21,309 bases of DNA from an uncultured virus (IMG/VR IMGVR_UViG_3300015606_001060) (lineage: Duplodnaviria > Heunggongvirae > Uroviricota > Caudoviricetes). Below the pieces are notes generated by a model. The model was not told the origin of the DNA and did no database searches. It saw only the letters and a program-made list of their open reading frames with translations. The position numbers and the translations under genes are program-made. Positions 4,435 to 21,309 of the stretch are shown here, in pieces; position 1 is the first letter of the stretch, and each line of letters opens with the position of its first letter. The DNA lies in the IMG/VR virus record IMGVR_UViG_3300015606_001060; one strand, written 5' to 3'.

Positions 4435-4436
4435 GG

Positions 4437-4878: not shown

Positions 4879-4887
4879 GTCTTCCTC

Positions 4888-5049: not shown

Positions 5050-5051
5050 GG

Positions 5052-5920: not shown

Positions 5921-5922
5921 GG

Positions 5923-6153
5923 CTATAGCTCCTTTGCTTCTATTGCACGGGCGTCGGCGACATCTTTGTGTGCGCCAGAATGGGCGTGCGGCATGCTCGC
6001 GTAGTGCATAACGTGGTCAATCAGCTTGCCAAGCATGGCGCGCTGCTGCTCGATGGTTTCGACAAAGGCCTTGACTTCGGCCGGGGAGAATTCGCCGCCA
6101 CCGACATGCACCGTTTCACGGTTGAATGCGGCGGCCTTCAGGTTAGCCAGCAT
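5923..6153 (-). CDS. Hypothetical phage protein (76 aa)
   Basis: CTAGGAG RBS. Confidence 0.75.
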   Translation of the reverse strand: MLANLKAAAFNRETVHVGGGEFSPAEVKAFVETIEQQRAMLGKLIDHVMHYASMPHAHSGAHKDVADARAIEAKEL

Positions 6154-6230
6154 GATTTAGCTCCTAGTAAGTTGTGTGACTCGGGTCTGATTGCCCGTCA
6201 CTGCAGCCAGGTGGCCGCAGTAGCTGGAAA

Positions 6231-6551
6231 TCAGCAAACTACGTGACAGGTGACTTGCACCAGATATTCGCGGCGCTTGGTGTGCTTGATGCGCCAGACG
6301 CTCGCCGATACGTGGCCGCAGCAGTCGTGCGCGCAGTGGCATCGGCGATTGAATACCCTGTTCAGGGCTTCGGCGACTTCGGCCGGGTCTTTGCTCTTGA
6401 CTGCCATCAAGTAGCTATCCGTCCAGTATTCTCCGTAGCCGTATGCCTCCGGGTCGCCATAGTCGCGGCCCAGCTTCTTCAGCTGCGCCACCGGGATACG
6501 CTTCTCTTCCTCGGTGGCTTCGTTGTAGGTGTAGGCGTTGTACCAGTCCAT
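6231..6551 (-). CDS. Hypothetical protein with CxCxHDCCGH motif, putatively Zn-binding (106 aa)
   Basis: RRCHCAHDCCGH; AGGAG RBS. Confidence 0.75.
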   Translation of the reverse strand: MDWYNAYTYNEATEEEKRIPVAQLKKLGRDYGDPEAYGYGEYWTDSYLMAVKSKDPAEVAEALNRVFNRRCHCAHDCCGHVSASVWRIKHTKRREYLVQVTCHVVC

Positions 6552-6553
6552 GA

Positions 6554-6769
6554 TTAGCTCCTGTTGGCCAGCCGATTGGCTTCCATGCGCTGCGCGCTGG
6601 GTAGTCTGTCGGCGATTTCGGTGTCGGTCAGGTCGTCCAGCGCCACCAGGCAGGTTCCGCCACGGCAGACCAGGATTGTTTTCGTGCCGTCAGGAAACTT
6701 GCCTTTGTAATCCTTGTGGGTGTGCCGGTAGATCAGCTTCAGTGCTGCCTTGCGTTCTTCGGGGGTCAT
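6554..6769 (-). CDS. Hypothetical phage protein (71 aa)
   Basis: CCGGAGCACAAC-ATG RBS. Confidence 0.75.
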   Translation of the reverse strand: MTPEERKAALKLIYRHTHKDYKGKFPDGTKTILVCRGGTCLVALDDLTDTEIADRLPSAQRMEANRLANRS

Positions 6770-6781
6770 GTTGTGCTCCGG

Positions 6782-6967
6782 TTAGTAGTCTTGAAGTGGG
6801 TTGTAGTCGGGTTCGATTTCCTGCCACATCGGGCAAGGGCACCAGCCCTGTTCCGTTTCGACTTCGATGAATCGGCCGCGCTCGCGGGAGTGGCCTGTCG
6901 AGTAGCGGATGATTTCGCCGGCTGCCTTCATTTGCTCGGCCATGGCTTGAGCTTGCTGAAAAGTCAT
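6782..6967 (-). CDS. First gene of the leftward operon, hypothetical (61 aa)
   Basis: CCGGAGCACGCA-ATG RBS. Confidence 0.7.
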   Translation of the reverse strand: MTFQQAQAMAEQMKAAGEIIRYSTGHSRERGRFIEVETEQGWCPCPMWQEIEPDYNPLQDY

Positions 6968-7197
6968 TGCGTGCTCCGGTTGAGTGAATCCAGCTGGCCC
7001 GGCCTGTTGCCAAGCGGGCCAAGTTGATTAGCTCGGGTAGTGCGGGGTGTTGTCGCAGGGGCTGCCTGCACTTCTCGGCCTTGTCGGCCCTACGCCTCTC
7101 GGCGTCAGTCATAGGGTCATCCACGCTTGCGGGTACAGAGCGACGTACTAACGTCGTTGTAGGTGGTGGCCGCTATTGGGTGGTGTTACTTTCTGTT

Positions 7198-8328: not shown

Positions 8329-9852
8329 ATGGGCGCGCTTTCTCCGCTCGAAATCGGCTTCCTGCGCGTTCGGGATAACCTCGAAGTATTCGCGGCCACT
8401 TGCCTGCGCATCAAGGACAAGGCGGGCGACAGCAAGCCATTCCTGTTCAATCAGGCGCAGCAATACGTGCATGAGCGGCTGGAGCAGCAGCTGAAGCAAA
8501 CCGGAAAGGTGCGGGCGCTGATCCTGAAGGGGCGGCAGCAGGGCATCTCGACATACATCTCAGCGCGCTTCTATCACAAGACGACGATGAAGACAGGCCA
8601 AACGGCCTTGATTGTCGCGCACGAACAGAAGGCGACTGACAACCTGTTCAAGATGGTCAAGCGGTATCACGACCACAACCCGCTGCCGGTCAGCACGGGC
8701 AACACGAACGCCAAGGAACTGATTTTCGACAAGCTGGGCGGGGGCTACATGCTGGCCACTGCCGGCAGCAAGGACGTGGCGCGCGGCAATACGGCCCAGT
8801 TCGCGCATCTCTCGGAGTTCGCCTTCTGGCAGAACGCCAACATGCACATGGCGGGCCTGGGCAACATCGTCGCCGACCTGCCGGGCACCGAGATGGTGAT
8901 GGAATCCACGGCAAACGGCCTGGGCAACGCCTTTCACTCGCTCTGGCAGGATGCCGAAGCCGGGCTAAACGACTTCATCGCCATCTTTGTGCCGTGGTAC
9001 TGGCAGCCGGAATATCAGGCGCCGGTTAAAAAAGATTTCACGCTATCCGGCGAGGATCGTGAATACCAGCTTGCCTACGGGCTGACGCTGGAGCAAATGC
9101 AGTGGCGCGCCAACAAGATTTCCACGTATGGCGCGGGCTTTGAATGGCTGTTCGACCAGGAATACCCGGCTACCGCTGCGCTCGCTTTCAAGACCTCGAC
9201 GCAGAACCCGCTGATTTCGCCAAATCTGGTCATGCAGGCGGTTCATTCGACCTACCTTGACCCGCAGGCGCCACTGATCATTGGTTGCGATCCCGCGGGC
9301 GACGGGGCGAACGATGCTGACCGCACGGCGATTGCCTTCCGTCGTGGCCGCATGGTGCAGCGCATCGAGTATCACAGCGGCCTGAATACGATGCAGATCG
9401 CCGGCAAACTGGCGGAATACGTGCGCACTTACCAGCCGGATGGCCTCTTCATCGATAAGGGCGGCCTGGGCGCTGGCATCTATGACCGGCTGCTGGAACT
9501 GAATATCAACGTCATCGGCGTGAATAGCGCAACTGCAGCCATCGACCACGAACGCTACGAGAACAAGCGGGCTGAAATGTGGTGGTTGATGCGCGAATGG
9601 TTCGAGAACCAGCCTTGCCGGCTGCCGAACAACCCGGCGCTGATTGCCGACATCACCAGCCCACAGCCGAAGGTGTCGAGCAATGGCCGAAAGTTGCTGG
9701 AGAAGAAAGAGGACATGGCCAAGCGTGGTATTCGCTCGCCTGACGGCGCGGACGCACTGGCGCTGACCTTCGCCTTTCCTGTCGCCACCCGTGGCAGCGC
9801 TGACACTGGCGGGCAACGCGATAACACGCCGGCCACGTCTGCCGGTTACTGA
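8329..9852 (+). CDS. terL: Terminase large subunit
   Basis: Walker A ILKGRQQGIST, Walker B AHLSE, EST coupling motif, nuclease motifs IIGCDPA and RSPDGADALALTFA. Confidence 0.95.
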   Translation: MGALSPLEIGFLRVRDNLEVFAATCLRIKDKAGDSKPFLFNQAQQYVHERLEQQLKQTGKVRALILKGRQQGISTYISARFYHKTTMKTGQTALIVAHEQKATDNLFKMVKRYHDHNPLPVSTGNTNAKELIFDKLGGGYMLATAGSKDVARGNTAQFAHLSEFAFWQNANMHMAGLGNIVADLPGTEMVMESTANGLGNAFHSLWQDAEAGLNDFIAIFVPWYWQPEYQAPVKKDFTLSGEDREYQLAYGLTLEQMQWRANKISTYGAGFEWLFDQEYPATAALAFKTSTQNPLISPNLVMQAVHSTYLDPQAPLIIGCDPAGDGANDADRTAIAFRRGRMVQRIEYHSGLNTMQIAGKLAEYVRTYQPDGLFIDKGGLGAGIYDRLLELNINVIGVNSATAAIDHERYENKRAEMWWLMREWFENQPCRLPNNPALIADITSPQPKVSSNGRKLLEKKEDMAKRGIRSPDGADALALTFAFPVATRGSADTGGQRDNTPATSAGY

Positions 9853-9860
9853 GGAATCCC

Positions 9861-10274
9861 ATGCAAACCTACATCGGAACAAAGACCGTCAAGGCAGCAC
9901 CCATGACGCGCGGCGATTACAACGTGCTGCGCGGCTGGGAATGCCCGGCCGACGAGAACCCGGCAGACGCTGGCTTTCTCGTCGAATACGTGGATGGCGG
10001 CAAGGCCAATCACCCGGATTTCGCCGGCTACGTCAGCTGGTCGCCGGCTGGCGTGTTCGAGCGCGCCTACAGGCTGGCGGATACCTGGCTCGACCGGCTG
10101 CGCATCGAGCGCGACGAACTGAGCGCACGACTGGACAAGCTGACGGCTTTCACCGAGTCGCCCGCCTTCAATGACGTGCCCGAGCACGATGCGGCCCTGC
10201 TGCTCGACCAGCGCAACGCCATGGCAGGCTATCTGGAAATCCTGACGGTGCGCATTGAGAGGGCTGGCCAATGA
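9861..10274 (+). CDS. Conserved phage protein (YIGTK...YVSWSPAGVFERAY plus coiled coil)
   Basis: Recognisable motif family frequent in phage morphogenesis regions; GAGGA RBS. Confidence 0.8.
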   Translation: MQTYIGTKTVKAAPMTRGDYNVLRGWECPADENPADAGFLVEYVDGGKANHPDFAGYVSWSPAGVFERAYRLADTWLDRLRIERDELSARLDKLTAFTESPAFNDVPEHDAALLLDQRNAMAGYLEILTVRIERAGQ

Positions 10275-10669
10275 GCGCGGATGCCATCGAGGCCCAGCTG
10301 CAGGCCACTGCCAAGGCGCCGCGCATCACGCCGGATGACATCGAGGCGAATATCAAGGGCGAGCACTATTTCACTGCGGCCGATGGTATTCGCGGTGCAA
10401 ACGAACTTGAGTGTGAGCAAGGCGACCCGCTGACGCTGCTGACATTCTGCGTGCTCGAACTGCGCAATGGCTTCACGGTGACGGGCGAATCGGCCTGTGC
10501 TTCGCCGGAAAACTTCAACGCCGAGATTGGCCGCCAGATTGCCCGCCAGAACGCTGTTGCGAAGGTTTGGCCGCTGATGGGCTATCAGCTGAGATCAACG
10601 CTATGGCACCAGCAGCAGCTGCTCGCCGAGCGCAATAAGGCAGGCGAAGCCATGGAGGTGCGACCGTGA
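10271..10669 (+). CDS. Gp49 family protein (Phage_gp49_66-like)
   Basis: LTFCVLELRNGFTVTGESACASPENFNAEIGRQIA...VWPLMGY signature. Confidence 0.9.
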   Translation: MSADAIEAQLQATAKAPRITPDDIEANIKGEHYFTAADGIRGANELECEQGDPLTLLTFCVLELRNGFTVTGESACASPENFNAEIGRQIARQNAVAKVWPLMGYQLRSTLWHQQQLLAERNKAGEAMEVRP

Positions 10670-10821
10670 GCAAGCAAGAGCAAACCTTTGAAGACGCCTG
10701 GCTCGATGGCGAGGCGCCGGCCGCACCCGAGCACGCCCGCAAGAAGAAGGCCGCCGACGACGAGCGGATGGCCGAATCGGCCGCCTTTTCGGCCTCATGG
10801 AATGAACTGAAGGACGAATAG
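10666..10821 (+). CDS. Small charged hypothetical protein (51 aa, GTG start), not in the ORF track
   Basis: GGAGG RBS, GTGA overlap with the Gp49 stop, ends 4 nt before the portal start. Confidence 0.6.
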   Translation: MSKQEQTFEDAWLDGEAPAAPEHARKKKAADDERMAESAAFSASWNELKDE

Positions 10822-10825
10822 CCAC

Positions 10826-13117
10826 ATGGAAGCTGTTTTGATGATGGAAGAAGAGCAAAAGCCGGCCGACGAGTTCGAGCACGCCGCGGCACAGGCCTTT
10901 GCCGAACCCGAGGCGCAGGAGCAAGCGGTTCAATCGGCGCTTGGTACTCGCCTCCTATCCGAGTTCGCCCAGGCAGAGGGCGACCGGCGATTGACTGAAG
11001 AGCGCTGGCTGAAGGATTTGCGGCAATACCGTGGGGTGTATGACCCCGATGTACTCGCCAAGATCGGCGTCAATCGCTCCAAGGCCTTCGTGCGCAAGAC
11101 GCGCGTCAAGGTGAAGACCATCGATTCCCGCGTCGCCGACCTGCTTTTCCCGGCTGGCACGGAAAAGAACTGGGACGTTAAGCCGACGCCGAAGCCCAGC
11201 ATCTCGAAAGAGCAGCGCGCCATCATCATCCAGCAGCTGAAGGCCATGCAGGCCCAGGCGGCGCAGATGGGCGGCCAGGCTGTCCCGCTCAACGATGACG
11301 CCATCGGCAAGGCGGTCGTCAATTTCGCCAAGGAATCGGCGAAGAAGATGGCGAAGACCATCGAGGATCAGCTAGTCGAATCGCGCTACAAAGAGGTGTG
11401 CATCAAAGCGGTGCATTCGGGCCACTTGTACGGCACGGGCATCATCAAAGGCCCGCTCATTGAGCGCAAGGTGCGCACGCGCTTCGTGATGGAGGGCGGC
11501 AAGTGGGTAGCGAAGAGCGAGAGCTATGTCGTGCCCTTCGTCGATTATGTGCCGCTGTGGCGATTCTATCCCGACATGAACGCCACGCAACTGAGCGAGT
11601 GCCGCTACGTCTATGAGCGACACAACATGACGGTCAGCGACCTGGCCGAACTGGCCGAGCGCAAGAGTTTCAACAAGAAGGCCATCGTCAGCTACATCAA
11701 GAGTCATCCGCATGGGCAGACAACGCCGCGCTACATCGACAACGAACTGAAGTTGATTGGCGACCGGCAGCAGAACCAGGGGCAGCAGGGGCGAGGCATG
11801 TTCGAGGTGCTGGAGCGCTGGGGCTGGCTGACCGGGCAGGACTTGCTGGACGTGGGCGTTAAGGTGCCGGCCGAACGGGTGCATGAGGCGTTTTTCTCGA
11901 ACGTCTGGCTGCTGCCGAACGGGGAGGTGATCAAGGCCGTTTTGCAGCCGATCAATGGCGTGACCTGGCCCTATCACATCTACAGCTTTGACAAGGACGA
12001 AACCAGCATTTTCTGCGAAGGCCTGGCCGCGGTCATGCGCGACGACCAGACCATGCTGAATGCCGCGGTGCGCTTGATGCTGGATAACGGCGCGCTGACT
12101 TCCGGCCCCATGGTCGAGGTTACGCCTCAGTTGCTGTCGAGCTACGACAAGATTGACGAGTTGGCGCCCTGGAAGGTTTGGACTCGCAACCTGACGAACC
12201 CCGGCGCGCCGGCTATTCGCCCCATTGAGTTGCCGAGCCATCTGAACGAACTGCAGGCCATGGCCAATATGTTCGAGCAGAACACCGACGAGGTGACGGC
12301 GATCCCGCGCTACATGACCGGCGAGAATGCCACCCAAGGCGCAGCCGGCACAGCGGCAGGCATGTCGATGCTGATGGGCGCGGCAAACATCGTCATCAAG
12401 GATTTGATCACCAGCTGGGACGAGGGCATTACGCGGCCCTTCCTGCAGGCGCTGTACCGCTGGAACATGCAATTCAACCCGGACAACAGCATCAAGGGCG
12501 ATTTTGACGTGCAGGCCCGCGGCGCCGCTTCGCTGGTGGCCAAGGAGGTGCGCGGCCGGCTGCTCAACGAGTTTGGGCAGATGACGGCGAACCCGCTCGA
12601 TGCGCCGTTCATCAAGCGGGACGTGTTCAACCGGTTGCGCGCCGAGGCGCTGGAAATGTCCGATGTCGTCAAGACCGAGGATGAAGTGATGGCCGAGCAG
12701 CAAGGCGGCCCGGCCCAGGCCCAGATGCAGATGCAGCAGCAGCTGCAGCAGCTGGAGGTGGCGCTGAAGCAGGCCCAGGTGACGGAGATGCAGATGAAGG
12801 CCGAGCGCTCTAAGGCCGAGGCGGCCCGCATCCAGGCGGATGAAATCCTGCAGCGCGCCAAGACGATCAGCGAGCGGGTATCCGCGGCTTATGCGGCCCT
12901 GCAGGCGGGTGGCGTGGTGGCCGCTTCGCCGCACGCTGCCGAGCCGGGCGACGAAATCCTGCGCTCCGCGGGCTGGGAGGATGCAACGCCCGAGCAGAGC
13001 ATTGCGCAGACCATGGCGGGCGCCCAGCCTGGCCCGGCCTTCGATGCGCCGCCGATGCAGCCGGCGACGGGATTCGCCGGGGAGCACGCCGGGATTGAAA
13101 CGGAGGAGTTCGTCTGA
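10826..13117 (+). CDS. Portal protein (podovirus/P22-like)
   Basis: 763 aa downstream of TerL; YGTGIIK, FYPD, TAAGMSMLM motifs; Gln-rich C-terminal coiled coil. Confidence 0.9.
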   Translation: MEAVLMMEEEQKPADEFEHAAAQAFAEPEAQEQAVQSALGTRLLSEFAQAEGDRRLTEERWLKDLRQYRGVYDPDVLAKIGVNRSKAFVRKTRVKVKTIDSRVADLLFPAGTEKNWDVKPTPKPSISKEQRAIIIQQLKAMQAQAAQMGGQAVPLNDDAIGKAVVNFAKESAKKMAKTIEDQLVESRYKEVCIKAVHSGHLYGTGIIKGPLIERKVRTRFVMEGGKWVAKSESYVVPFVDYVPLWRFYPDMNATQLSECRYVYERHNMTVSDLAELAERKSFNKKAIVSYIKSHPHGQTTPRYIDNELKLIGDRQQNQGQQGRGMFEVLERWGWLTGQDLLDVGVKVPAERVHEAFFSNVWLLPNGEVIKAVLQPINGVTWPYHIYSFDKDETSIFCEGLAAVMRDDQTMLNAAVRLMLDNGALTSGPMVEVTPQLLSSYDKIDELAPWKVWTRNLTNPGAPAIRPIELPSHLNELQAMANMFEQNTDEVTAIPRYMTGENATQGAAGTAAGMSMLMGAANIVIKDLITSWDEGITRPFLQALYRWNMQFNPDNSIKGDFDVQARGAASLVAKEVRGRLLNEFGQMTANPLDAPFIKRDVFNRLRAEALEMSDVVKTEDEVMAEQQGGPAQAQMQMQQQLQQLEVALKQAQVTEMQMKAERSKAEAARIQADEILQRAKTISERVSAAYAALQAGGVVAASPHAAEPGDEILRSAGWEDATPEQSIAQTMAGAQPGPAFDAPPMQPATGFAGEHAGIETEEFV

Positions 13118-13887
13118 TGGCCGAGTACGGGAAGCGCGCCAACGGCACGCCAAAGGGGCGCGGTTATTTTGGCGAAATCAAGATGAAAGATGGCTCTGTG
13201 ATGACCGAGCTAGGGGTGAATGAAACCGTGGATGGCGAGGACTTGCACTATCCGCTGATTCACCCCGGCATGTCGCGCGACGACCTGGATTGGTTGGCGT
13301 CTGGGAAGAAGCCGACCGGCGCCATGTATGACGCTGCACTTGGCCATGCCATGAAGCGGAGAGCGGCCGGGCGCGACCCGTTCGCTGGCGAGGATGACGA
13401 GGTGATGCCGATGCCTGAACCGGCCAAGAAGTTCGCCGATGGCGGCATGCTCGACCAGTACCGTGCGCTCAAGAAGGAATATCCGACTGCCTACACGGTG
13501 GCGGCCATTGCGCCAGTCACCGGGCAAGCGCTGGCCGTTGCCGATTACGCCGACGCGATGGATAGAGGCGACACTGGCGACGGCATCATGGCCGCAGCCT
13601 CGTTAATTCCAGGCATCAAGCTGGCAAAGCTGGGCAGCAAAATCGCACCAGCGGCGCATGAGCTTGCCATTGCCAAGACGTTCTACCCAAAGAGCGCCCG
13701 CGCGGTTCTTGCGCCAATGACGGCAAACTCAGACCGGATTGGAAAGGTTGCTGCTGCAGAGCAGCTTGGCGAATACGCCGACAATAAGGCAAGCGAGTAC
13801 GCCATGCGCAAGGCCGAGCACGATGCCAAGAACCGGCAGGACAACGAGGCTTATTCAATGGCCTGGCATGACGTGGTGAAGCAATGA
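13117..13887 (+). CDS. Two-part hypothetical protein, possibly virion-associated (256 aa)
   Basis: TGATG overlap with the portal stop; GGAG RBS; KFADGG junction. Confidence 0.7.
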   Translation: MAEYGKRANGTPKGRGYFGEIKMKDGSVMTELGVNETVDGEDLHYPLIHPGMSRDDLDWLASGKKPTGAMYDAALGHAMKRRAAGRDPFAGEDDEVMPMPEPAKKFADGGMLDQYRALKKEYPTAYTVAAIAPVTGQALAVADYADAMDRGDTGDGIMAAASLIPGIKLAKLGSKIAPAAHELAIAKTFYPKSARAVLAPMTANSDRIGKVAAAEQLGEYADNKASEYAMRKAEHDAKNRQDNEAYSMAWHDVVKQ

Positions 13888-14123
13888 ACGAAATCAAAGC
13901 CCATGAGCGACTGCTGGCGGCCGCGGATGACGTGCGCCAGTTCGCCGGCTGCGATGCGTCGCGCTGCTTTGCGGCCTTGCTCGAATCGCTGGTCGAGAGC
14001 TATCGCTTCGACCTTGAGAACGCCACGCCGGAAACGCTAGGCGCCACCCAGGCCAAGCTGAAACAGGTGCGTGCGCTGCTGGCAGTGGTGGCCGGCGATA
14101 CAAATGCGTCGGCAAAAATTTAG
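13884..14123 (+). CDS. Hypothetical helical protein between portal and scaffold (79 aa)
   Basis: ATGA overlap; position in the head module. Confidence 0.7.
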   Translation: MNEIKAHERLLAAADDVRQFAGCDASRCFAALLESLVESYRFDLENATPETLGATQAKLKQVRALLAVVAGDTNASAKI

Positions 14124-14148
14124 CACAGCAACCAACAAGGAAAAACCA

Positions 14149-15174
14149 ATGGCAACTCTCGAAGACCTGACCAGCAGCGAAGCTGAATTCGCTTCTGCTT
14201 TCAATGAAGACGTGCCCGAGCGCGCCGAGCTATCCGAAGACGAGGCTTTCGGCATCATGCCGTTGCAACCCAGCGAGGACGGTGCGAGCGATGGCAATTC
14301 GGCCGACCAGGGCGGCGCGGCAAAAGGTGGCGCCATGACCCTGCAACCGGCTGCCGGTGATGCGCTGCAGGCCGAGGCGGATGCTGTGGCTGGCGCTGCC
14401 GAGCCGGGCGAGCGCATCGAGGGTGATGTGGCCATGCAGGATCAGCCGAGCGAGGAAGATTTGCAGCGGCAACGCTCCTGGGAGGGGCGTTTGCGTGCCC
14501 GTGAGGCGCAGCTGGCCGCCAAGCAGGCTGAACTGGAGGCGTTGGCAGCCCAGCTGCAGGCCGGCCAGCAGCCGGTGATGCGCGCCGATGGCGGCGAAGT
14601 TGAGGATGCGCTGCACGAAGCCGGCGAGGGGGACGAGATCGAGGCAATGGAGGATGCTGCCGAGCAGCTGGAAAGCGGCAAGCCGGTCGATGCCGTCATT
14701 CAGTCACTGCGCGACGACTTCGGCGACGACTTTGTATCGGCCATTGAGTCGCTGGTGCAGGCCAAGGCGGCCGAAATCGCTGAAAGGATGGTTGGCGAGA
14801 AGGTGGGTGACGTGAATGGCGCCGTTGAGGCGCTGATTACCAACCTGCAAGACCGTGACGAGCGCGCCCATTTCAGCGCTATCGCCAAGGTGCACCCGGA
14901 TTTCATGGAGGTGGCCAACGGCGAAGGCATGGGCGCTTACCTGGCCGCGCTGCCGCCGAATGAACGCGCTGCTGCCGAGTCGGTTATTGACGGCGGTTCG
15001 GCCGAGGATGTTATCGCACTCATTGATGCGGTGAAGAGTCACGGTAAGCCGCAGGCGGCGCCGCAGGATGACGAGGCCATGGCAGCCGCCGAGGGGGTGC
15101 GCTCGAACGGCCTGAAGATTCCCGAGAAGCCGGGCAAGGCAGACGACTACGAGGGCGCCTGGGCCGAATTCTGA
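14149..15174 (+). CDS. Capsid scaffolding protein (putative, 341 aa)
   Basis: Very acidic, coiled-coil (RSWEGRLR...), directly upstream of the capsid gene; AAGGA RBS before ATG 14149. Confidence 0.75.
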   Translation: MATLEDLTSSEAEFASAFNEDVPERAELSEDEAFGIMPLQPSEDGASDGNSADQGGAAKGGAMTLQPAAGDALQAEADAVAGAAEPGERIEGDVAMQDQPSEEDLQRQRSWEGRLRAREAQLAAKQAELEALAAQLQAGQQPVMRADGGEVEDALHEAGEGDEIEAMEDAAEQLESGKPVDAVIQSLRDDFGDDFVSAIESLVQAKAAEIAERMVGEKVGDVNGAVEALITNLQDRDERAHFSAIAKVHPDFMEVANGEGMGAYLAALPPNERAAAESVIDGGSAEDVIALIDAVKSHGKPQAAPQDDEAMAAAEGVRSNGLKIPEKPGKADDYEGAWAEF

Positions 15175-15198
15175 TAGCGGCGCATGCAGCGACCAGAC

Positions 15199-15222
15199 AA
15201 GGCGCCTACGGGCGCCTTTTTT
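15199..15222 (+). terminator. Intrinsic terminator after the scaffold gene
   Basis: AAGGCGCC-TACG-GGCGCCTT followed by a T-tract. Confidence 0.85.
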
Positions 15223-15240
15223 GCGCAATCCTGCTAGAAA

Positions 15241-15258
15241 GTCTCAGTCAGTGGTGGC
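15241..15258 (+). repeat. 18-bp direct repeat copy 1 (GTCTCAGTCAGTGGTGGC), putative late promoter element
   Basis: Identical to 16520-16537. Confidence 0.8.
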
Positions 15259-15453
15259 CGCTACCATGTTGTAAAACAATCCATTCCGTTGAGGCGAGTT
15301 GCCTCGATGGAGCAAGACAAGCGACGCGCTGACGAAGTTGGTTGGGCTAAGGCCGAAAGCCTCCCCGTGATGACCAGCAGGCTCGGCATACGGCCCATGT
15401 GAGTCATTCGCTCCTTTCCATGAATGCCATCAATTCACGAAAGGATACCCACA

Positions 15454-16437
15454 ATGGCAATCAATACCTTCGGCGATATTTCGCCTCGTACTGCGGCCTA
15501 TGCCGAGAAGGAACTGCTGAAGCGCGGCCTGCCCTTCCTGGTGCTGGAGAAGTTCGGCCAAGCCAAGCCGTTGCCGGCCAACAACAGCAAGGTCATCAAG
15601 TTCCGCCGCTACAACCCGCTGCCGAACACCCCGGTCGCCCTGTCCGAAGGCGTGACCCCGACCAGCCAGAACCTGACCGTGACCGACGTTACGGCTACCC
15701 TGGTGCAGTATGGAGGCATCACCACGCTGACCGATGTCGTACTCGACACGCACGAAGACCCGGTACTGAACGAAGCTGTCGCCATCCTGGGCGAGCAGGC
15801 CGCTCAGATGATCGAAAAAATGCGTTTCGGCATCCTGGTCGCCGGCACCAACGTCGTTTACGCCAACGGCGCCGCCCGTAACGCAGTCAATACGACCATC
15901 TCGCTGGCCATTCAGCGCAAGTGCACCCGTGCCCTGAAGCGCCAGAATGCCCGCCCGATCACCAGCATCGTGCGCTCGACGCCGGCTTACGATACGGCCG
16001 CTGTCGCGCCGGGCTTCGTCGGCCTGATCCACCCCGACCTGGAGGGTGATGTTCGTAATCTGACTGGCTTCGTCCCGGCTGAAAAGTACGGCACGATGAC
16101 CCCGTGGGAAAACGAACTGGGCAAGTGCGAGGACGTGCGCTACGTGTCCTCGACCATCTTCGAGCCGTTCGCTGATGCCGGTGGCGCCAAGGGCACCATG
16201 CTCTCCACCACGGGTACGAACGCCGACGTGTATCCCATCCTGTACCTGGCACGCGACGCCTACGGCATCGTGGCGCTCAAGGGCCAGTATGCGGCCACGC
16301 CGATGGTCGTCAATCCGAAGCCGTCCGACTCCGACCCGCTGGCCCAGCGCGGTCACGCCGGCTGGAAGGCCATGCAGACCGCCGTCATCCTACAGGATGC
16401 CTGGATGGTTCGCTGCGAGGTGGCTGCAACCGCCTAA
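15454..16437 (+). CDS. Major capsid protein, N4-gp56 family (327 aa)
   Basis: GDISPRTAAYA, IKFRRY, LSEGVTP, QYG, DPLAQRGHAGWK motifs; strongly biased codons; AAGGA RBS. Confidence 0.93.
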   Translation: MAINTFGDISPRTAAYAEKELLKRGLPFLVLEKFGQAKPLPANNSKVIKFRRYNPLPNTPVALSEGVTPTSQNLTVTDVTATLVQYGGITTLTDVVLDTHEDPVLNEAVAILGEQAAQMIEKMRFGILVAGTNVVYANGAARNAVNTTISLAIQRKCTRALKRQNARPITSIVRSTPAYDTAAVAPGFVGLIHPDLEGDVRNLTGFVPAEKYGTMTPWENELGKCEDVRYVSSTIFEPFADAGGAKGTMLSTTGTNADVYPILYLARDAYGIVALKGQYAATPMVVNPKPSDSDPLAQRGHAGWKAMQTAVILQDAWMVRCEVAATA

Positions 16438-16456
16438 CCGCTTGGTTGCTGTGTGA

Positions 16457-16491
16457 AAAGGGGCGGGCCTTCGTGGCTCGCCCTTTTTTTT
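16457..16491 (+). terminator. Intrinsic terminator after the capsid gene
   Basis: GGGCGGGCC-TTCGT-GGCTCGCCC followed by T8. Confidence 0.9.
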
Positions 16492-16519
16492 GACTCGTTT
16501 TGCGATGCGTTGCGCGCAT

Positions 16520-16537
16520 GTCTCAGTCAGTGGTGGC
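16520..16537 (+). repeat. 18-bp direct repeat copy 2
   Basis: Identical to 15241-15258. Confidence 0.8.
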
Positions 16538-16597
16538 ACATGCGCCGCGCTCCGACAATCGCCAGGCAGCAATCACAACCAACCAACGAGGTTTTAC

Positions 16598-16966
16598 ATG
16601 AGCAATTCCCAATCTGTTGTTACCGACCTGTCCGACGAAGTGACCGCCTCCCCGGTCGCCGAGAAGCCCGCCAAGGCCGCCAAGGTTGCCGCCAAGGAGG
16701 TCAAGGGCGCCAACGCTGACGGCGAACTGTCCGGTAAGCGTGTCACGCTGACCATCCACCAGACCAGCGAAGAAGGCGGCGACGAGGATGTGTTCATCGG
16801 CCTGAACGGCTATGGATACAAGATCAAGCGCGGCGAGCCGTGCAGCGTGCCGGAAGAGGTGGCCAACATCATCAAAAATGCCGTGACGACGACCATTCGG
16901 CCGGGCAAAGAGGGTGGCGTGACCGAATCGAAGACGCCGCGTTTCGCCTACTCCATCTCGGGCTAA
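16598..16966 (+). CDS. Hypothetical virion-module protein (122 aa)
   Basis: GAGG RBS; DVFIGLNGYGYKIKRGE...VPEEV motif, commonly found after phage capsid genes. Confidence 0.8.
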   Translation: MSNSQSVVTDLSDEVTASPVAEKPAKAAKVAAKEVKGANADGELSGKRVTLTIHQTSEEGGDEDVFIGLNGYGYKIKRGEPCSVPEEVANIIKNAVTTTIRPGKEGGVTESKTPRFAYSISG

Positions 16967-16972
16967 TCGCCG

Positions 16973-17614
16973 ATGGCCGCTAACGCCAGCCTGCACCCAT
17001 ACTGCGCGCCCGAATTGCCGGGCGTGCCGGCGCCAATGCTCGATGCCTACATCAATCGGGCCTGGTTCGACCTCGCCAAGCAATCGCTCTGCTGGAGCGA
17101 GTGGCAGAGCATTGCGCTGCGGGCTGGCGTGGCCACGTATGAGTTGGAAACGCCGAGCGATGGCGCGGCACGCATCCATCTGGTCATCACGGCGCAGCAG
17201 GGTAGCAACATCCTATCGCCGCGCGGCATCGAACAGCAACTGATGTACGACGCTGCCCAAGCGGAGCGTCGCGGTACGCCGAACGGCTATCGCCTGGAGC
17301 AGAACAAGGATTTCATCGTCTATCCGATTCCGCAGGCCGATGACATCGCCTTGCCGATTCGTGCCCTGGTGGCTTTTGTACCGGTGCTGACGGCGACGAC
17401 CATTCCCGACCAGTTCGCCGAAAAGTACCTGGATACCCTGGTAGCCGGCGCCAAGGCCAAGCTGATGGCCATGGTTGGCCAGCCCTGGAGCAATCCGCAG
17501 GCCGCTGCTTACTGGAATGGCGTGTTTGATGCGGGTATCACTGATGCCGTGGTTGAGCGCATGAAGGGCGGCACGCAGGCCGCAATCACCGTTCGCCCGC
17601 GGCTTTTCATGTAA
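16973..17614 (+). CDS. Putative head-tail adaptor / tail tubular protein
   Basis: Position; VYPIP...IPDQFAEKYLDTLVAGAKAKLM...PWSNP pattern. Confidence 0.65.
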   Translation: MAANASLHPYCAPELPGVPAPMLDAYINRAWFDLAKQSLCWSEWQSIALRAGVATYELETPSDGAARIHLVITAQQGSNILSPRGIEQQLMYDAAQAERRGTPNGYRLEQNKDFIVYPIPQADDIALPIRALVAFVPVLTATTIPDQFAEKYLDTLVAGAKAKLMAMVGQPWSNPQAAAYWNGVFDAGITDAVVERMKGGTQAAITVRPRLFM

Positions 17615-17623
17615 GGGGCGCGC

Positions 17624-18193
17624 ATGGCCGTACCGTGCAATCTCGTTCTTCTGAACGTCAAGACGCTGCTCAATGATGCCGGCCTGGTGCATTGGACGCA
17701 GGATGAATTGCTGGCCTGGGGCAGCGAGGGGCAGGTTGAGCTTGTCACGCTCAAGCCGGATGCGGCAACCAAGACGGTGACGCATCAGCTGGTGGCCGGC
17801 GCCCGGCAGACGGCGCCCGCGGATTGCATCTCGATCCTGGATATGCGCCAGAACGATGGCGGCACCGCCATTACACCGTGCGACCGCAATGCGCTCGACC
17901 GATTCCAGCCGGGCTGGATGAAATCGCCGACTGCATCGACCGTCAAGCACTGGATGCCTGACCCGCAGCCGGACACGTTCTATGTCTATCCCGCGCAAAA
18001 CGCCACGCCGGCCAAGGTCATCATCACACACAGCTTTGCGCCGCCCGCCCTGACGGCCAACGGCACGCTCGGCGTGCGCGACATCTATCAGGCCGCCATC
18101 GAAAACTACATTCTGTTCCGCGCGTTCAGCAAGGATGCAGAGCCGGCCAGCGCCGAGCGCGCCATGGCCTACGGCAAAGCCTTCTACGGGTAA
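17624..18193 (+). CDS. Putative second adaptor-like protein
   Basis: WTQDELLAW...FYVYP...AIENYILFRAFSKDAE pattern; position. Confidence 0.65.
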   Translation: MAVPCNLVLLNVKTLLNDAGLVHWTQDELLAWGSEGQVELVTLKPDAATKTVTHQLVAGARQTAPADCISILDMRQNDGGTAITPCDRNALDRFQPGWMKSPTASTVKHWMPDPQPDTFYVYPAQNATPAKVIITHSFAPPALTANGTLGVRDIYQAAIENYILFRAFSKDAEPASAERAMAYGKAFYG

Positions 18194-18198
18194 TCACT

Positions 18199-18549
18199 AT
18201 GCCAGCAGCCATTTACGACTTTGAAATCGAGCAAGGCACCACGCTCAACAAGCAGATGGTGTGGAAGGGCAGCACCGGGGCGCCGGTTAATTTGTCTGGC
18301 TACACGGCCCGCATGCAGATGCGGCCAAGCGTATCGAGCGATACCGTCCTACTCAACCTGACGACCGAGAACGGCGGTATCACGCTGGGCGGCGCGCTGG
18401 GCACGATTACGCTGCACTTCACGGCGGCACAGACGGCTGCGCTCCCCAAAGGCGGCGTCTATGACCTTGAGGTGATTATCGGCGGCAATGTGACGCGCTT
18501 GCTGCAGGGCGCCGTGTCGCTATCCAAGGAGGTGACGCGCAATGTCTGA
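18199..18549 (+). CDS. Putative tail fibre attachment/connector protein (116 aa)
   Basis: IEQGTT...VNLSGYTARMQMR...GVYDLEV...RLLQG...EVTR motif; precedes the fibre gene. Confidence 0.7.
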   Translation: MPAAIYDFEIEQGTTLNKQMVWKGSTGAPVNLSGYTARMQMRPSVSSDTVLLNLTTENGGITLGGALGTITLHFTAAQTAALPKGGVYDLEVIIGGNVTRLLQGAVSLSKEVTRNV

Positions 18550-19702
18550 CATCCTGATTGCGCAAGAGGTTGGCACGGTCGTCGTGATTGAAACGGCGCC
18601 GGCTGAAATCGTTGAGGTGGTGGCTGTTGGCCCGCAAGGCCCGGTTGGTGATGTAAATCCGCAAATGCCGGTGATTCTGGCAGCCACGGAGGCGGCACGC
18701 GATGCGGCGCTGGTATCCAAACTGGCGGCAGCCGCTTCGCAGTCGGCAGCGGCCACCTCGGCGGCCAACGCAGCGACCTCGGAGAGCAATGCGGCGACCT
18801 CAGCAGCCACGGCCACGGCGCAGGCAACGGCTTCGGCAGGCTCGGCGACGGCTTCGGCTGGCTCGGCTGCAGCGGCGCAATCCTCGGCCACGAATGCCGC
18901 AACCTCGGAAACCAACGCTGCGAACAGCGCCACGGCTTCGGCCAACTCGGCGACCAGTTCGGCGAATAGCGCGACGGCGGCACAGGCGGCGCGAACCGCC
19001 ACCGAGTCGGCCCGTGATACGACGCTGGCCACCATTGGCACGGCTGCGCTCAAGGCGAACAACCTATCCGACTTGGCAAACGCTGCCACGGCCCGTAGCA
19101 ACCTTGGTTTGGGTAATGTCAACAACACATCGGATGCCAATAAGCCAATTAGCACAGCGACGCAGACTGCGCTGAATGCCAAGGAGAATACGGCCAACAA
19201 GGGCGTGGCCAACGGTTATGCCGCGCTTGATGCGACAGGTAAGGTTCCTACTGCACAGTTGCCGTCTTATGTAGATGATGTGCTTGAATATGCAAGCCTG
19301 TCTGGTTTTCCTGCAACCGGTGAGACAGGGAAAATCTACGTCGCGCTGGACACCAACAAGACTTATCGCTGGTCTGGTTCTGCCTATGTCGAGATCAGCG
19401 CATCACCCGGCACGACCGACTCACTGACCGAAGGTGCGACCAATCTTTATTTCACCACGGCACGGGCGCGGGCCGCTTTGAGCGCCACAGGCGCCGTGTC
19501 ATACAACAGCGCCACCGGGGTCATTTCAGCCGAGCTTACCTCTGGCTACGCTTCAAAGACAGTCGCTGTGAATACCACTCTTGCCGCCGATACAGAGTAC
19601 GAAACGGGGCGCAATCTGCGCATCAATCACGGCGTCAATCTGGCCATTCCGGCATCAACCAAACTGATCGTGCGCAAGTACGCGGCAGGCTCATCGCTTT
19701 AA
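18542..19702 (+). CDS. Tail fibre protein with Ala/Ser/Thr-rich coiled-coil shaft (386 aa)
   Basis: Stf-like A/S/T repeats; NNLSDLANAATARSNLGL; NTSDANKPISTATQTAL; KGVANGYAALDATGKVP. Confidence 0.85.
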   Translation: MSDILIAQEVGTVVVIETAPAEIVEVVAVGPQGPVGDVNPQMPVILAATEAARDAALVSKLAAAASQSAAATSAANAATSESNAATSAATATAQATASAGSATASAGSAAAAQSSATNAATSETNAANSATASANSATSSANSATAAQAARTATESARDTTLATIGTAALKANNLSDLANAATARSNLGLGNVNNTSDANKPISTATQTALNAKENTANKGVANGYAALDATGKVPTAQLPSYVDDVLEYASLSGFPATGETGKIYVALDTNKTYRWSGSAYVEISASPGTTDSLTEGATNLYFTTARARAALSATGAVSYNSATGVISAELTSGYASKTVAVNTTLAADTEYETGRNLRINHGVNLAIPASTKLIVRKYAAGSSL

Positions 19703-19714
19703 CAGGAGAAAACT

Positions 19715-20776
19715 ATGTCCATGCAACTTGATTCAGCCAGTGGATCCATCACGCTCATCCCGGAGGACGGCGCTGGAAACGTCAATGTCACCGTTCCGCG
19801 CGCCGGGTTCGCCTCGGTGCCAGCCTATGGCCTGTTCGCCAAGGCCGATCCGACGACCGTTGCATTCACCAAGACCGCTGCTGGTGCCGCAAGTATCAAG
19901 GCAGGCACCAAGGTAGATGTGGCTGGTACGCTGGTGCAGTTCGGCAGCGCGACGGCCATCACCATGCCGACCCTAACGGCAGGCACCGATTACGCCATTT
20001 GGGTCAAGGACGACGGAACCATTCAGGCGTCCAGCGGCCACACATCAGCACCCGGCGCCGGTAACTGGCGCAAGATCGGCGGCTTCAACTACGCGCCGGG
20101 CGGCCTGGCGACAGGCACCAGCGGCGGCGATACCACACCGCAGATTCTTGCCGGGACGTTCTGGGACTTGAAATTCCGCCCAGCCTGCTCTGATCCGCGC
20201 GGCATGAAGTTGGTGGCTGATGCGTTTTGGGCAGACCTCTGGATGCTCAATACCGATCCTGCCGTCAATGGCACGTCAAAATATGGCGCGACCATCGCCG
20301 ACGGCAGTAGCCCGCCGAAAGTGCCATCCGCATTCGGCGGTAATGGCACGACGACATACCCCGACGGGAATTGGTGGAACATGGCCGAATGCCTCAGCGC
20401 TTATGGCAAACGGCTGCCGACCTATTCCGAGTTCGCTGCCCTTGCTTATGGAACTACCGAGGCCACGTCACGCGGTACGGATCCCGGTACGTGTCAAGTC
20501 GATGCCGCCCGCACCTCGCAGCATGTGTTCCAGGCCACGGGGAACTTGTGGACATGGGGCGACGAATTCGGTGGCGGCGCAGCAGCAGCAAGCTGGACAG
20601 CGAATACTGGTGGGCGGGGTTCTACTTACCAGATGGAAAACGCCGTGCTGTTTGGGGGCTACTGGGCCAGCGCGTCGAACTCCGGTTCACGTGCCTCGCT
20701 CTGGGTCCACTCGCCCACGCTCTCGAGCGGCGACATCGGGGTGCGCGGCGTCTGTGACCACCTGATCCTTGACTAA
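19715..20776 (+). CDS. mtd: Major tropism determinant-like receptor-binding protein; DGR target (C-type lectin fold C-terminus)
   Basis: Closely resembles recalled BPP-1 Mtd (SIKAGT, LTAGTDYAI, DPRGM, GTSKY, YTANTGGRGS-like, C-terminal RGVCDHLIL); carries the VR. Confidence 0.93.
   Translation: MSMQLDSASGSITLIPEDGAGNVNVTVPRAGFASVPAYGLFAKADPTTVAFTKTAAGAASIKAGTKVDVAGTLVQFGSATAITMPTLTAGTDYAIWVKDDGTIQASSGHTSAPGAGNWRKIGGFNYAPGGLATGTSGGDTTPQILAGTFWDLKFRPACSDPRGMKLVADAFWADLWMLNTDPAVNGTSKYGATIADGSSPPKVPSAFGGNGTTTYPDGNWWNMAECLSAYGKRLPTYSEFAALAYGTTEATSRGTDPGTCQVDAARTSQHVFQATGNLWTWGDEFGGGAAAASWTANTGGRGSTYQMENAVLFGGYWASASNSGSRASLWVHSPTLSSGDIGVRGVCDHLILD
20641..20757 (+). repeat. DGR variable repeat (VR)
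   Basis: Ungapped 117-nt match to 21193-21309 with 16 mismatches, all opposite TR adenines. Confidence 0.97.
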
Positions 20777-20792
20777 GGCGGCGACAGCCGCC
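20737..20792 (+). promoter_or_regulatory. DGR homing signals: GC element, IMH and downstream hairpin
   Basis: CGGGGTGCGCGGCG (20737-20750), TCTGTGACCACCTGATCCTTG (20751-20771), GGCGGC-GACA-GCCGCC (20777-20792). Confidence 0.85.
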
Positions 20793-20808
20793 GGAACGAT
20801 TGTTGAAC

Positions 20809-21189
20809 ATGCAGCCTGAAAAAGAAGTCACGCAATGCTACGAGCAGATGAACATCGTCGAGAAATACGAAACGGTGATCGCCTACCTGTACCCCATTGC
20901 GCAGAATATCCCGCGCAAGCATGGCGTGGCCAAGGCCATGTTCATCGAGTGCCTGCTAGAGCAGGTCAAACTGATTGTGGAGGCCGGGAAGTCTGGACAG
21001 ATTTCCCGCCTTTACGTCGCAGACGCGGGACTCTCGCAACTGCGATTTTGGCTGCGGTTTCTGGTGAGCAAGCAGGTACGCAGCATCACGCCACACCAAG
21101 TCGAGACGGCACAAGTGCTGATCGCGGAGGTGGGGCGCTTGCTGGGTGCCTGGATTGTGAAGCAGAAGCGCAGAGGGCAACATGGATAA
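20809..21189 (+). CDS. avd: DGR accessory variability determinant Avd (126 aa)
   Basis: Closely resembles recalled BPP-1 Avd (YLYPIAQxIPRKHGVA, ADAGL..LRFWLRFL, TPHQVETAQVLIAEVGR.LG.W); lies between VR and TR. Confidence 0.95.
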   Translation: MQPEKEVTQCYEQMNIVEKYETVIAYLYPIAQNIPRKHGVAKAMFIECLLEQVKLIVEAGKSGQISRLYVADAGLSQLRFWLRFLVSKQVRSITPHQVETAQVLIAEVGRLLGAWIVKQKRRGQHG

Positions 21190-21192
21190 ATT

Positions 21193-21309
21193 CGCCGTGC
21201 TATTTGGGGGCAACTGGGACAACACGTCGAACTCCGGTTCACGTGCCTCGAACTGGAACAACTCGCCCACGAACTCGAACAACAACATCGGGGTGCGCGG
21301 CGTCTGTGA
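21193..21309 (+). repeat. DGR template repeat (TR), truncated by the window end
   Basis: AAC-rich copy of VR starting 4 nt after the avd stop. Confidence 0.96.

What the first reader, a model, noticed from the sequence alone, without database searches (positions are those of the whole stretch)
19715..21309. Diversity-generating retroelement hypermutating the phage receptor-binding protein
Seen: VR 20641-20757 and TR 21193-21309 align without gaps over 117 nt. All 16 differences fall on TR adenines (8 A>G, 4 A>T, 4 A>C; 16 of 27 adenines). Nine of the 10 in-frame AAC codons are altered. TR would read FGGNWDNTSNSGSRASNWNNSPTNSNNNIG and VR reads FGGYWASASNSGSRASLWVHSPTLSSGDIG, 11 residue changes. 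Established: this is the signature of mutagenic retrohoming in the BPP-1 mtd-avd-TR-brt system. Inference: the phage switches host tropism, with up to 4^26 (about 4.5e15) nucleotide variants from the 26 adenines before the GC element. The system class is known, but this instance and its host may not be.
Basis: partly seen in the sequence, partly recalled or inferred. Interest (0 to 1): 0.92.

Follow-up and report, generated by a model that had tools for sequence, protein, structure and literature searches.

The report
BPP-1-type retroelement diversifying phage receptor protein
An uncultured wastewater phage carries the same kind of reverse-transcriptase cassette as Bordetella phage BPP-1, which rewrites the tip of its receptor-binding protein; it is a real, probably active, but ordinary new example of a well-known system.

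Summary
VR 20641-20757 and TR 21193-21309 align without gaps over 117 nt. All 16 mismatches fall on TR adenines and 90 of 90 non-adenine positions are identical (P = 6.5e-13).

The target ORF is an Mtd homologue (56% identity to BPP-1 Mtd; PDB 1yu1, E 1e-103). The next gene is Avd. A BPP-1-like IMH (33 of 35 nt identical) and a GC hairpin with a GACA loop follow the VR.

The window ends on the last base of VR/TR identity, so it holds no reverse transcriptase. In related contigs, 65 of 72 with enough downstream DNA carry an RT about 170 nt past the TR. That RT has YMDD, IGSLTSQ and R74 and is 63% identical to Brt. One of these contigs shares the window's backbone.

Sixteen near-identical-TR relatives all have different VRs: 26 of 27 adenine columns vary, against 15 of 90 others. 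This argues for ongoing activity.

Outside the cassette the phage is unrelated to BPP-1, so the cassette looks like a transferable module. The host is unknown; a betaproteobacterium is a weak guess.

Verdict: a new member of a known kind.

The parts
19715..20776 (+). mtd-like target gene (353 aa), the receptor-binding tail protein. An AGGAG ribosome-binding site lies 8 nt upstream of the ATG.
   Evidence: Pfam mtd_2nd 1.8e-17. PHROG 11262 tail protein 8e-111. 55.7-56.3% identity to Mtd of BPP-1/BMP-1/BIP-1 over residues 41-353. PDB 1yu1 and others, E 1e-103, residues 40-353. Start region read.
20641..20757 (+). Variable repeat (VR), the last 117 nt of identity with the TR. It encodes Mtd residues about 310-348.
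   Evidence: 16 of 16 mismatches at TR adenines and 90 of 90 non-A positions identical.
20737..20771 (+). IMH-like element: a 14-nt GC-rich segment (13 of 14 G/C) plus a 21-nt segment.
   Evidence: 33 of 35 nt identical to the last 35 nt of the BPP-1 VR. The IMH is defined as (GC)14 + 21 bp in PMC3240598 (passages).
20777..20792 (+). Hairpin/cruciform candidate, GGCGGC-GACA-GCCGCC, directly after the mtd stop codon (TAA 20774-20776).
   Evidence: The same position in BPP-1 holds an 8-bp stem with a GAAA loop. 42 of 53 distinct relatives have a perfect stem of at least 5 bp with a 4-nt loop here, with 9 different stem sequences. The GRNA loop consensus is from PMC3240598.
20809..21189 (+). avd accessory gene. 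The ATG at 20809 gives 126 aa. The ORF finder's TTG start at 20800 gives 129 aa.
   Evidence: Pfam bAvd 1.3e-31. NCBIfam DivGenRetAVD 5.5e-31, above its cutoff. PHROG 3206, Avd protein of DGR. 67% identity to BPP-1 Bbp7. Relatives align from residues 3-4 onward.
21193..21309 (+). Template repeat (TR), non-coding, cut by the end of the window. It includes the equivalent of the BPP-1 cDNA start (TR 117 = 21306) but not the spacer RNA or the RT.
   Evidence: Relatives L061 and L063 continue with a 167-nt spacer and a 331-aa RT.

Best explanation
The window is about half of an uncultured phage genome, found in wastewater and sludge metagenomes. Its 3' end carries a BPP-1-type diversity-generating retroelement in the order mtd (with VR) - IMH - hairpin - avd - TR. 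The contig stops at the last base of VR/TR identity.

The likely mechanism is inferred by homology with BPP-1. An avd-TR-spacer RNA is bound by an RT-Avd complex. cDNA is primed from a spacer adenosine and starts at the G equivalent to TR 117 (window 21306). The RT misincorporates opposite the 26 template adenines. The cDNA then replaces the VR, guided by the IMH and the hairpin.

This rewrites up to 14 codons (10 of them AAC) on the ligand-binding face of the Mtd C-terminal domain, giving about 1.5e14 possible proteins, and so changes which host surface molecule the phage binds.

Shown here: the adenine-only TR/VR pattern; homology of Mtd and Avd; conserved IMH and hairpin; presence of the RT in relatives; and VR-specific, adenine-specific variation among relatives. 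Inferred: that this very contig continues into an RT, that the element is active now, and that the outcome is a change of tropism.
For: TR/VR pattern: 16 of 16 mismatches on TR adenines and 90 of 90 other positions identical, P = 6.5e-13. 9 of 10 AAC codons are changed.

Homology: Mtd and Avd.

Target signals: the IMH is 33 of 35 nt identical to BPP-1. A 6-bp GC hairpin with a GACA loop sits right after the stop codon. A hairpin is kept in 42 of 53 distinct relatives with 9 different stems, and 37 of those 42 loops fit GRNA.

RT in relatives: 65 of 72 related loci with at least 1400 nt after avd have an RT on the same strand, starting 273-318 nt after avd (not de-duplicated). L061 is 94.8% identical to window 20547-21309. 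Its 331-aa RT has YMDD at 213, IGSLTSQ at 181 and R74 and aligns end to end with bRT, PDB 8ub7, E 2e-140. L063/L008 shares the window's backbone (88-90% aa over genes 17624-19702) and also has the RT.

Population variation: among 16 distinct TR/VR pairs whose TR is at least 110 of 117 identical to the window's, all 16 VRs differ. 26 of 27 A columns vary in the VR against 15 of 90 non-A columns. Mean pairwise difference is 18.5 in the VR and 4.2 in the TR. In the wider family, 620 of 684 mismatches in 59 distinct pairs lie at TR adenines.

Concerted change: the window has T at 21294 (TR) and at 20742 (VR), where L061 and L062 have C in both copies.

Continuation beyond the window: in the coded run X4, a 1833-nt contig lies on 20755-21309 with 3 differences and runs 1278 nt past the window end.
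Against: No RT, spacer or IMH* equivalent is in the window, and no whole assembly is held. Completeness of this exact element is therefore not shown.

No raw reads were available; all runs are kept as contigs. Within-sample VR heterogeneity was not measured, and the table of differing letters was cut off before the VR.

The hairpin stem is 6 bp, below the 7-10 bp range reported for phage DGRs (PMC3240598). The (GC)14 element holds one T.

Some close relatives show 1-2 non-adenine TR/VR differences, so the adenine rule is not absolute in the lineage.

The host and any tropism change are untested.
Confidence: 0.93

Rival explanations
1. Relic DGR: the VR was diversified in the past, but this phage has lost its RT or it is inactive, so the VR is now frozen.
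For: The window contains no RT and ends at the TR. 7 of 72 related loci with enough downstream sequence lacked a full RT hit. Some relatives (L023/L073/L074, L075) have a downstream repeat copy that has itself lost its adenines, so decay does occur in this family.
Against: mtd and avd are intact ORFs, and the TR keeps 27 adenines and 10 AAC codons. All 90 non-A positions are still identical between TR and VR. The shared T at 21294/20742, where L061 and L062 have C in both copies, points to TR-to-VR transfer after these lineages split. The same-backbone relative L063 has the RT. A contig in run X4 continues 1278 nt beyond the window end.
Confidence: 0.05
2. An ordinary tandem-like duplication of the 3' end of a tail-fibre gene that diverged by point mutation, or an assembly artefact that joins two strain variants.
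For: The contig ends exactly at the repeat. Public contigs break around the VR in all 4 runs laid, as repeats and strain variation tend to cause.
Against: The adenine-only pattern has P = 6.5e-13. The same architecture with the same bias recurs in 59 distinct TR/VR pairs from three collections. An Avd gene lies between the copies, and an RT follows in relatives.
Confidence: 0.01

Closest known systems
Bordetella phage BPP-1 DGR (mtd-avd/bbp7-TR-brt; AY029185 / NC_005357)
   Same: The gene order is the same. Identities are Mtd 56% (residues 41-353), Avd 67%, and the relatives' RT 63%. The IMH is 33 of 35 nt identical, and a hairpin sits at the same place after the stop codon. AAC-rich TR codons fall at aligned positions. 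In relatives the spacer keeps the GGTCAGCC motif that holds the BPP-1 priming adenosine Sp 56 (PMC6182149).
   Different: The rest of the phage is unrelated. Of 37 window proteins, only the large terminase (36% over 109 aa), Mtd and Avd hit the BPP-1 genome at E <= 1e-5. The Mtd N-terminal 40 residues differ, and the protein is 353 aa against 381. The hairpin has a 6-bp GGCGGC stem and GACA loop, against 8 bp and GAAA. There are 14 variable codons. After the cDNA start, the relatives' TR diverges completely from the VR and carries a 13-nt insertion before a CATCACCTTC stretch shared with the BPP-1 IMH*.
Prophage-like DGR cassette in a Hydrogenophilales MAG (JADJCP010000001.1, locus L040) and other betaproteobacterial MAGs
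   Same: These are the closest cassettes in named genomes: Avd 83%, Mtd 64%, RT 76-83%. 17 of 17 TR/VR mismatches fall at adenines. The GGCGGC-GACA hairpin is the same.
   Different: In the 20 kb held, only the cassette and the small gene after the RT are shared with the window. The flanking phage genes differ.
Mtd-type targets of Synechococcus phages S-CBS1/S-CBS3 and Marinomonas phage P12026
   Same: Mtd homologues with 39-44% identity over 85-91% of the protein.
   Different: They are much more distant, from different phage types and hosts. Their cassettes were not examined here.

Membership tests
Diversity-generating retroelement (BPP-1 type) | A TR/VR repeat pair whose differences are confined to adenines of the TR | tested here: met
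   16 of 16 mismatches at TR adenines and 90 of 90 non-A positions identical, P = 6.5e-13.
Diversity-generating retroelement (BPP-1 type) | The VR lies at the 3' end of a target gene encoding an Mtd / C-type-lectin-fold ligand-binding domain | tested here: met
   The VR covers residues about 310-348 of a 353-aa ORF. Sequence homology to solved Mtd structures 1yu0-1yu4 and 2iou is E 1e-101 to 1e-103 over residues 40-353. The fold itself was not modelled here.
Diversity-generating retroelement (BPP-1 type) | An accessory Avd gene lies between the target and the TR | tested here: met
   Pfam bAvd 1.3e-31. NCBIfam DivGenRetAVD 107 bits against a cutoff of 80.
Diversity-generating retroelement (BPP-1 type) | An adjacent DGR-clade reverse transcriptase with YxDD and the [I/V/L]GxxxSQ motif | tested here: inconclusive
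   It is not in the window, because the contig ends at the TR, and no assembly is held. It is present in 65 of 72 related loci with enough sequence. L061's RT has YMDD, IGSLTSQ and R74 and hits bRT 8ub7 at E 2e-140. The motif definition is from PMC7826257.
Diversity-generating retroelement (BPP-1 type) | An IMH at the VR 3' end ((GC)14 + 21 bp) that differs from the TR counterpart (IMH*) | tested here: met
   VR side: 33 of 35 nt identical to the BPP-1 IMH, with 13 of 14 G/C. TR side: cut off in the window. In L061 and L063 the TR diverges from the VR right after GTCTGTGA.
Diversity-generating retroelement (BPP-1 type) | A GC-rich hairpin/cruciform with a 4-nt GRNA loop just downstream of the VR | tested here: met
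   GGCGGC-GACA-GCCGCC at 20777-20792. The 6-bp stem is one short of the published 7-10 bp range (PMC3240598). Stem covariation is seen across relatives.
Diversity-generating retroelement (BPP-1 type) | Activity: the VR varies at TR-adenine positions within the population while the TR stays constant | tested here: met
   Tested between contigs of different samples only. There are 16 distinct VRs against 10 TRs. 26 of 27 A columns vary against 15 of 90 non-A. Mean pairwise difference is 18.5 against 4.2. Read-level variation within one sample could not be tested.
Rauchvirus (BPP-1-like phages) | A shared structural and replication gene set with BPP-1 | tested here: not met
   Portal, capsid, adaptor and tail genes of the window have no tblastn hit in BPP-1 at E <= 1e-5. 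Only the large terminase hits weakly, plus the cassette. Megablast against the phage collection found nothing. The best capsid hits are 45-46% to Pseudoalteromonas phage vB_Pun_Y3 and Pseudomonas phage Rollin.

The most novel reading that the evidence does not exclude
The block from mtd (about residue 40 onward) through avd, TR and RT is a self-contained module that recombines between unrelated phage backbones. One exchange could then give a phage a programmable receptor-binding tip.

In this wastewater lineage the block is 90-99% conserved at DNA level across phages whose neighbouring structural genes are only about 36% identical. The same block sits in BPP-1 and in a Hydrogenophilales prophage with otherwise unrelated genes.

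A side branch (L023/L074, L075) may show natural self-mutagenesis of the template. That outcome is known so far only from engineered IMH swaps (recalled, not checked in a paper here).
Probability: 0.45. Interest if true: 0.45.

Novelty: new member of a known kind. Interest (0 to 1): 0.3.

Why it matters
This adds a well-supported natural relative of the best-studied DGR. It comes with a ready comparative set of 59 distinct TR/VR pairs, 9 hairpin stem variants and a conserved spacer motif, which could help define what the BPP-1 machinery really requires.

It also shows the cassette on a different phage backbone, recurring in wastewater metagenomes of at least 10 studies. It does not change what is known about how DGRs work.

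Tried and rejected
Whole assembly: none is held. The nearest record, G001, is an 8739-nt fragment identical to window 8935-17673 and does not reach the cassette.

Megablast of 18500-21309 against the phage collection gave no match. The exact TR 66-mer had no match in genome contigs.

Read-level test: all runs are kept as contigs. The one read-laying run listed differing letters only up to 19543, so per-position VR/TR variation in those runs could not be read. I use only the piece table. Contigs break at or near the VR in all 4 runs. One X4 piece over 20529-20756 carries 19 differences in 228 nt, against 3 in 555 nt over 20755-21309.

Host by backbone: the capsid protein was not found in the 5 genomes that hold the closest cassettes. 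It found only 40%-identity matches in 2 of 400 scored genomes of the class of G002, and one further genome could not be scored. The host stays open. 15 of 20 genome contigs cassette relatives have betaproteobacterial titles (classification recalled), but the cassette moves between backbones and MAG binning of phage contigs is unreliable.

Other negatives: Rfam and tRNA scan found nothing. A second VR in the window was sought and not found. No structure prediction was run, because sequence homology to solved Mtd and bRT made it unnecessary.

Relatives were fetched by reference instead.

Supplements of the cited papers were not opened. The DGR catalogues there may already list the related IMG/VR contigs.

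Full report
OBSERVATION

I read 19500-21309 and compared the two stretches by script. Window 20641-20757 and 21193-21309 align without gaps over 117 nt with 16 mismatches. In every one the downstream copy has A (8 A>G, 4 A>T, 4 A>C). The downstream copy has 27 A and the upstream copy 11.

All 90 non-adenine positions are identical. The chance that 16 random mismatches all fall on the 27 adenines is 6.5e-13. No further copy exists on either strand of the window.

In the frame of ORF 19715-20776 the downstream copy has 10 AAC codons, 9 of them changed in the upstream copy.

WHAT THE PARTS ARE

- Target gene. ORF 19715-20776 (353 aa) matches Pfam mtd_2nd (1.8e-17) and PHROG 11262 tail protein (8e-111). 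It is 55.7-56.3% identical over residues 41-353 to Mtd of Bordetella phages BPP-1, BMP-1 and BIP-1. It aligns over residues 40-353 with the solved Mtd structures 1yu0-1yu4 and 2iou (E 1e-101 to 1e-103).
- Accessory gene. The next ORF runs from 20800, or more likely from the ATG at 20809, to 21189. It is Avd: Pfam bAvd 1.3e-31, NCBIfam DivGenRetAVD 107 bits against a cutoff of 80, and 67% identity to BPP-1 Bbp7.
- Template. The A-rich copy begins 4 nt after the avd stop codon and is non-coding.
- Target signals. The 35 nt at 20737-20771 are 33 of 35 identical to the BPP-1 IMH. That element is a 14-bp GC segment plus a 21-bp segment (definition in PMC3240598, passages; comparison). Directly after the mtd stop codon lies GGCGGC-GACA-GCCGCC (20777-20792). 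BPP-1 has an 8-bp stem with a GAAA loop at the same place. The paper reports 7-10 bp GC-rich stems and a GRNA loop consensus for phage DGRs. Here the loop fits and the stem is one pair short.

THE MISSING REVERSE TRANSCRIPTASE

The window ends on the last base of VR/TR identity and no assembly is held. I therefore looked at relatives.

- The TR 66-mer is exact in 4 IMG/VR contigs and in none of genome contigs.
- Searching with Avd gave 34 IMG/VR loci, 20 genome loci (alignment A1) and 35 metagenome loci.
- Of 72 loci with at least 1400 nt after avd, 65 carry an RT on the same strand starting 273-318 nt after avd. This count is not de-duplicated; several contigs occur in two collections. The 7 without are L037, L048, L057, L058, L059, L068 and L092.
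- The closest relative, L061, is 94.8% identical to window 20547-21309. It has a 167-nt spacer and then a 331-aa RT with YMDD at 213, IGSLTSQ at 181 and R74.
- IGSLTSQ fits the signature DGR motif [I/V/L]GxxxSQ, and R74 and I181 are the two residues shown to promote adenine mutagenesis (PMC7826257, passages).
- This RT aligns end to end with bRT (8ub7, E 2e-140). The L001 RT is 63% identical to Brt and matches Pfam RVT_1 (2.5e-17).
- L063/L008 shares the window's own backbone (88-90% aa identity for genes 17624-19702) and also has the RT.
- In the coded run X4, a 1833-nt contig lies on 20755-21309 with 3 differences and runs 1278 nt past the window end.

I put the chance that this phage has the RT just beyond the window at about 0.9. 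It is not shown.

IS IT ACTIVE?

Raw reads were not available; all 24 runs listed are kept as contigs. I compared contigs from different samples instead.

- Sixteen distinct TR/VR pairs, the window's among them, have a TR at least 110 of 117 identical to the window's. They carry 16 different VRs and 10 TRs.
- In the VR, 26 of 27 adenine columns vary against 15 of 90 other columns. Mean pairwise difference is 18.5 nt in the VR and 4.2 in the TR.
- The one adenine that never varies is 21309. It lies 3' of the position equivalent to TR 117, where BPP-1 cDNA synthesis starts (PMC6182149 passages).
- Against L061, the window differs at 15 VR positions, 1 TR position and 24 of the other 529 positions.
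- The single TR difference (T/C at 21294) is mirrored in each contig's own VR (20742). This is what TR-to-VR copying after the lineages split would give.
- Across the whole family, 81 loci were examined: 67 were testable, 10 had too little flank and 4 had no repeat. They give 59 distinct pairs, in which 620 of 684 mismatches lie on TR adenines.
- A hairpin with a perfect stem of at least 5 bp and a 4-nt loop follows the VR in 42 of 53 distinct relatives. There are 9 different stem sequences, and 37 of the 42 loops fit GRNA. That is covariation in favour of a structural signal.

Results that cut the other way:

- Several close relatives have 1-2 non-adenine TR/VR differences, for example T>G at the position of 20681 in 3 of 16 VRs.
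- A few loci have decayed or odd repeats: L023/L073/L074, L075 and L049.

MECHANISM

The mechanism is inferred by homology with BPP-1.

1. An RNA spanning the end of avd, the TR and the spacer is bound by RT-Avd.
2. cDNA is primed from the 2'-OH of a spacer adenosine. In BPP-1 this is Sp 56. L061 and L063 keep the GGTCAGCC motif around it, at spacer position 73.
3. Synthesis starts at the G equivalent to TR 117 (window 21306). The RT misincorporates opposite the 26 upstream adenines.
4. The cDNA replaces the VR, directed by the IMH and the hairpin.

Sixteen of 26 mutable adenines differ here (62%). This is of the order of the roughly 52% misincorporation per adenine reported in vitro (PMC7826257).

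Fourteen codons can change amino acid, 10 AAC codons with 15 outcomes each and 4 codons with 4 outcomes each, giving 1.5e14 proteins without stop codons.

That the outcome is a change of host receptor use is inferred from Mtd homology alone.

CONTEXT

The window reads as a phage:

- small ORFs on the minus strand, one a holin;
- small and large terminase subunits;
- an SU10-type portal;
- the major capsid protein;
- two SU10-type adaptor proteins;
- tail proteins, then the cassette.

Only the cassette, plus a weak large-terminase match (36% over 109 aa), is shared with BPP-1. Megablast against 50,697 phage records found nothing. The best capsid matches are 45-46% to Pseudoalteromonas phage vB_Pun_Y3 and Pseudomonas phage Rollin, and the best portal matches are about 30%. 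So this is not a Rauchvirus.

Contigs whose avd-TR is 91-99% identical to the window's (L001, L003) have a neighbouring structural gene only 36% identical. The closest cassette in a named genome is in a Hydrogenophilales MAG (Avd 83%), and it shares nothing else in 20 kb. The cassette therefore behaves as an exchangeable module. That is an inference from the distribution, not something seen to move.

The DNA occurs in wastewater and sludge metagenomes of at least 10 studies.

The host is unknown. Fifteen of 20 genome relatives of the cassette have betaproteobacterial titles (the classification is recalled). Backbone-based searches gave nothing close.

COMPARISON AND NOVELTY

In function and in membership this is a BPP-1-type DGR. 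Every defining feature that can lie inside the window is met, and the RT is met only in relatives.

It differs from BPP-1 in several ways:

- the phage backbone;
- the Mtd N-terminal 40 residues;
- the hairpin stem (6 bp, different sequence);
- the number of variable codons;
- in relatives, a TR 3' flank that diverges fully from the VR and has a 13-nt insertion before a CATCACCTTC stretch shared with the BPP-1 IMH*.

Phage DGRs that target tail proteins are catalogued from metagenomes in large numbers (PMC8144416 passages; PMC5758913 abstract in the listing).

I rate this a new member of a known kind, with interest 0.3.

Noticed in passing
L023 2850-2916 / 3399-3465 (same pair in L073, L074); L075 269-375 / 818-924: In these relatives the repeat copy after avd, where the TR should be, has lost nearly all its adenines (2-3 left). 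The two copies differ at many former adenine sites in both directions, as if the template itself had been mutagenised or replaced by a VR-like copy. L074 still has a long ORF where the RT would lie.
   Followed up: partly
window 20100-20600 (Mtd residues about 125-290): Between close relatives, the non-VR scaffold of the Mtd C-terminal domain is the most diverged part of the cassette. The window's Mtd is 77% identical to that of L003, with differences clustered there. By contrast avd and TR are 94-99% identical at DNA level. Several relatives' DNA homology to the window starts abruptly at 20530-20563.
   Followed up: partly
L061 784-950; L063 after 3882: The spacer between TR and RT keeps the BPP-1 GGTCAGCC...TGTCCTGCTTCGGC core. 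It has a 13-nt insertion right after the cDNA start site relative to BPP-1, which moves the motif's central A, the equivalent of the BPP-1 priming adenosine Sp 56, to position 73.
   Followed up: partly
window 20681 and equivalents in L001, L002, L003: A recurrent non-adenine TR/VR difference (T in the TR, G in the VR) occurs at one position in 3 of 16 close relatives. It could be an older TR allele kept in the VR by partial 5' cDNA integration, or a rare non-adenine misincorporation.
   Followed up: no
window 1-7000, minus strand: About 21 small ORFs (49-212 aa) run head to tail on the minus strand. Almost none has a family match. The exceptions are a holin (1324-1584, PHROG 7045) and PHROG 3205 (1841-2479). 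No integrase or repressor was recognised in the window, so the lifestyle is unknown.
   Followed up: no
phage records LR745707.1 and LR745708.1 (hits H12, H13): Two Escherichia phage T7 records carry, in tail fibre gene 17, a C-terminal part 53-55% identical to the window's Mtd residues 137-353. I take them to be engineered T7 constructs with an Mtd tip (recalled, not checked).
   Followed up: no
window 8935-17673: An 8739-nt IMG/VR fragment (G001, locus L096) is 100% identical to this part of the window. The same phage was therefore assembled at least twice, or filed twice.
   Followed up: partly
window 9861-10669: Two adjacent ORFs of 137 and 132 aa, overlapping by 4 nt, hit different parts of the same PHROG families of unknown function (3934 and 9467). 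They may be a split or duplicated gene.
   Followed up: no
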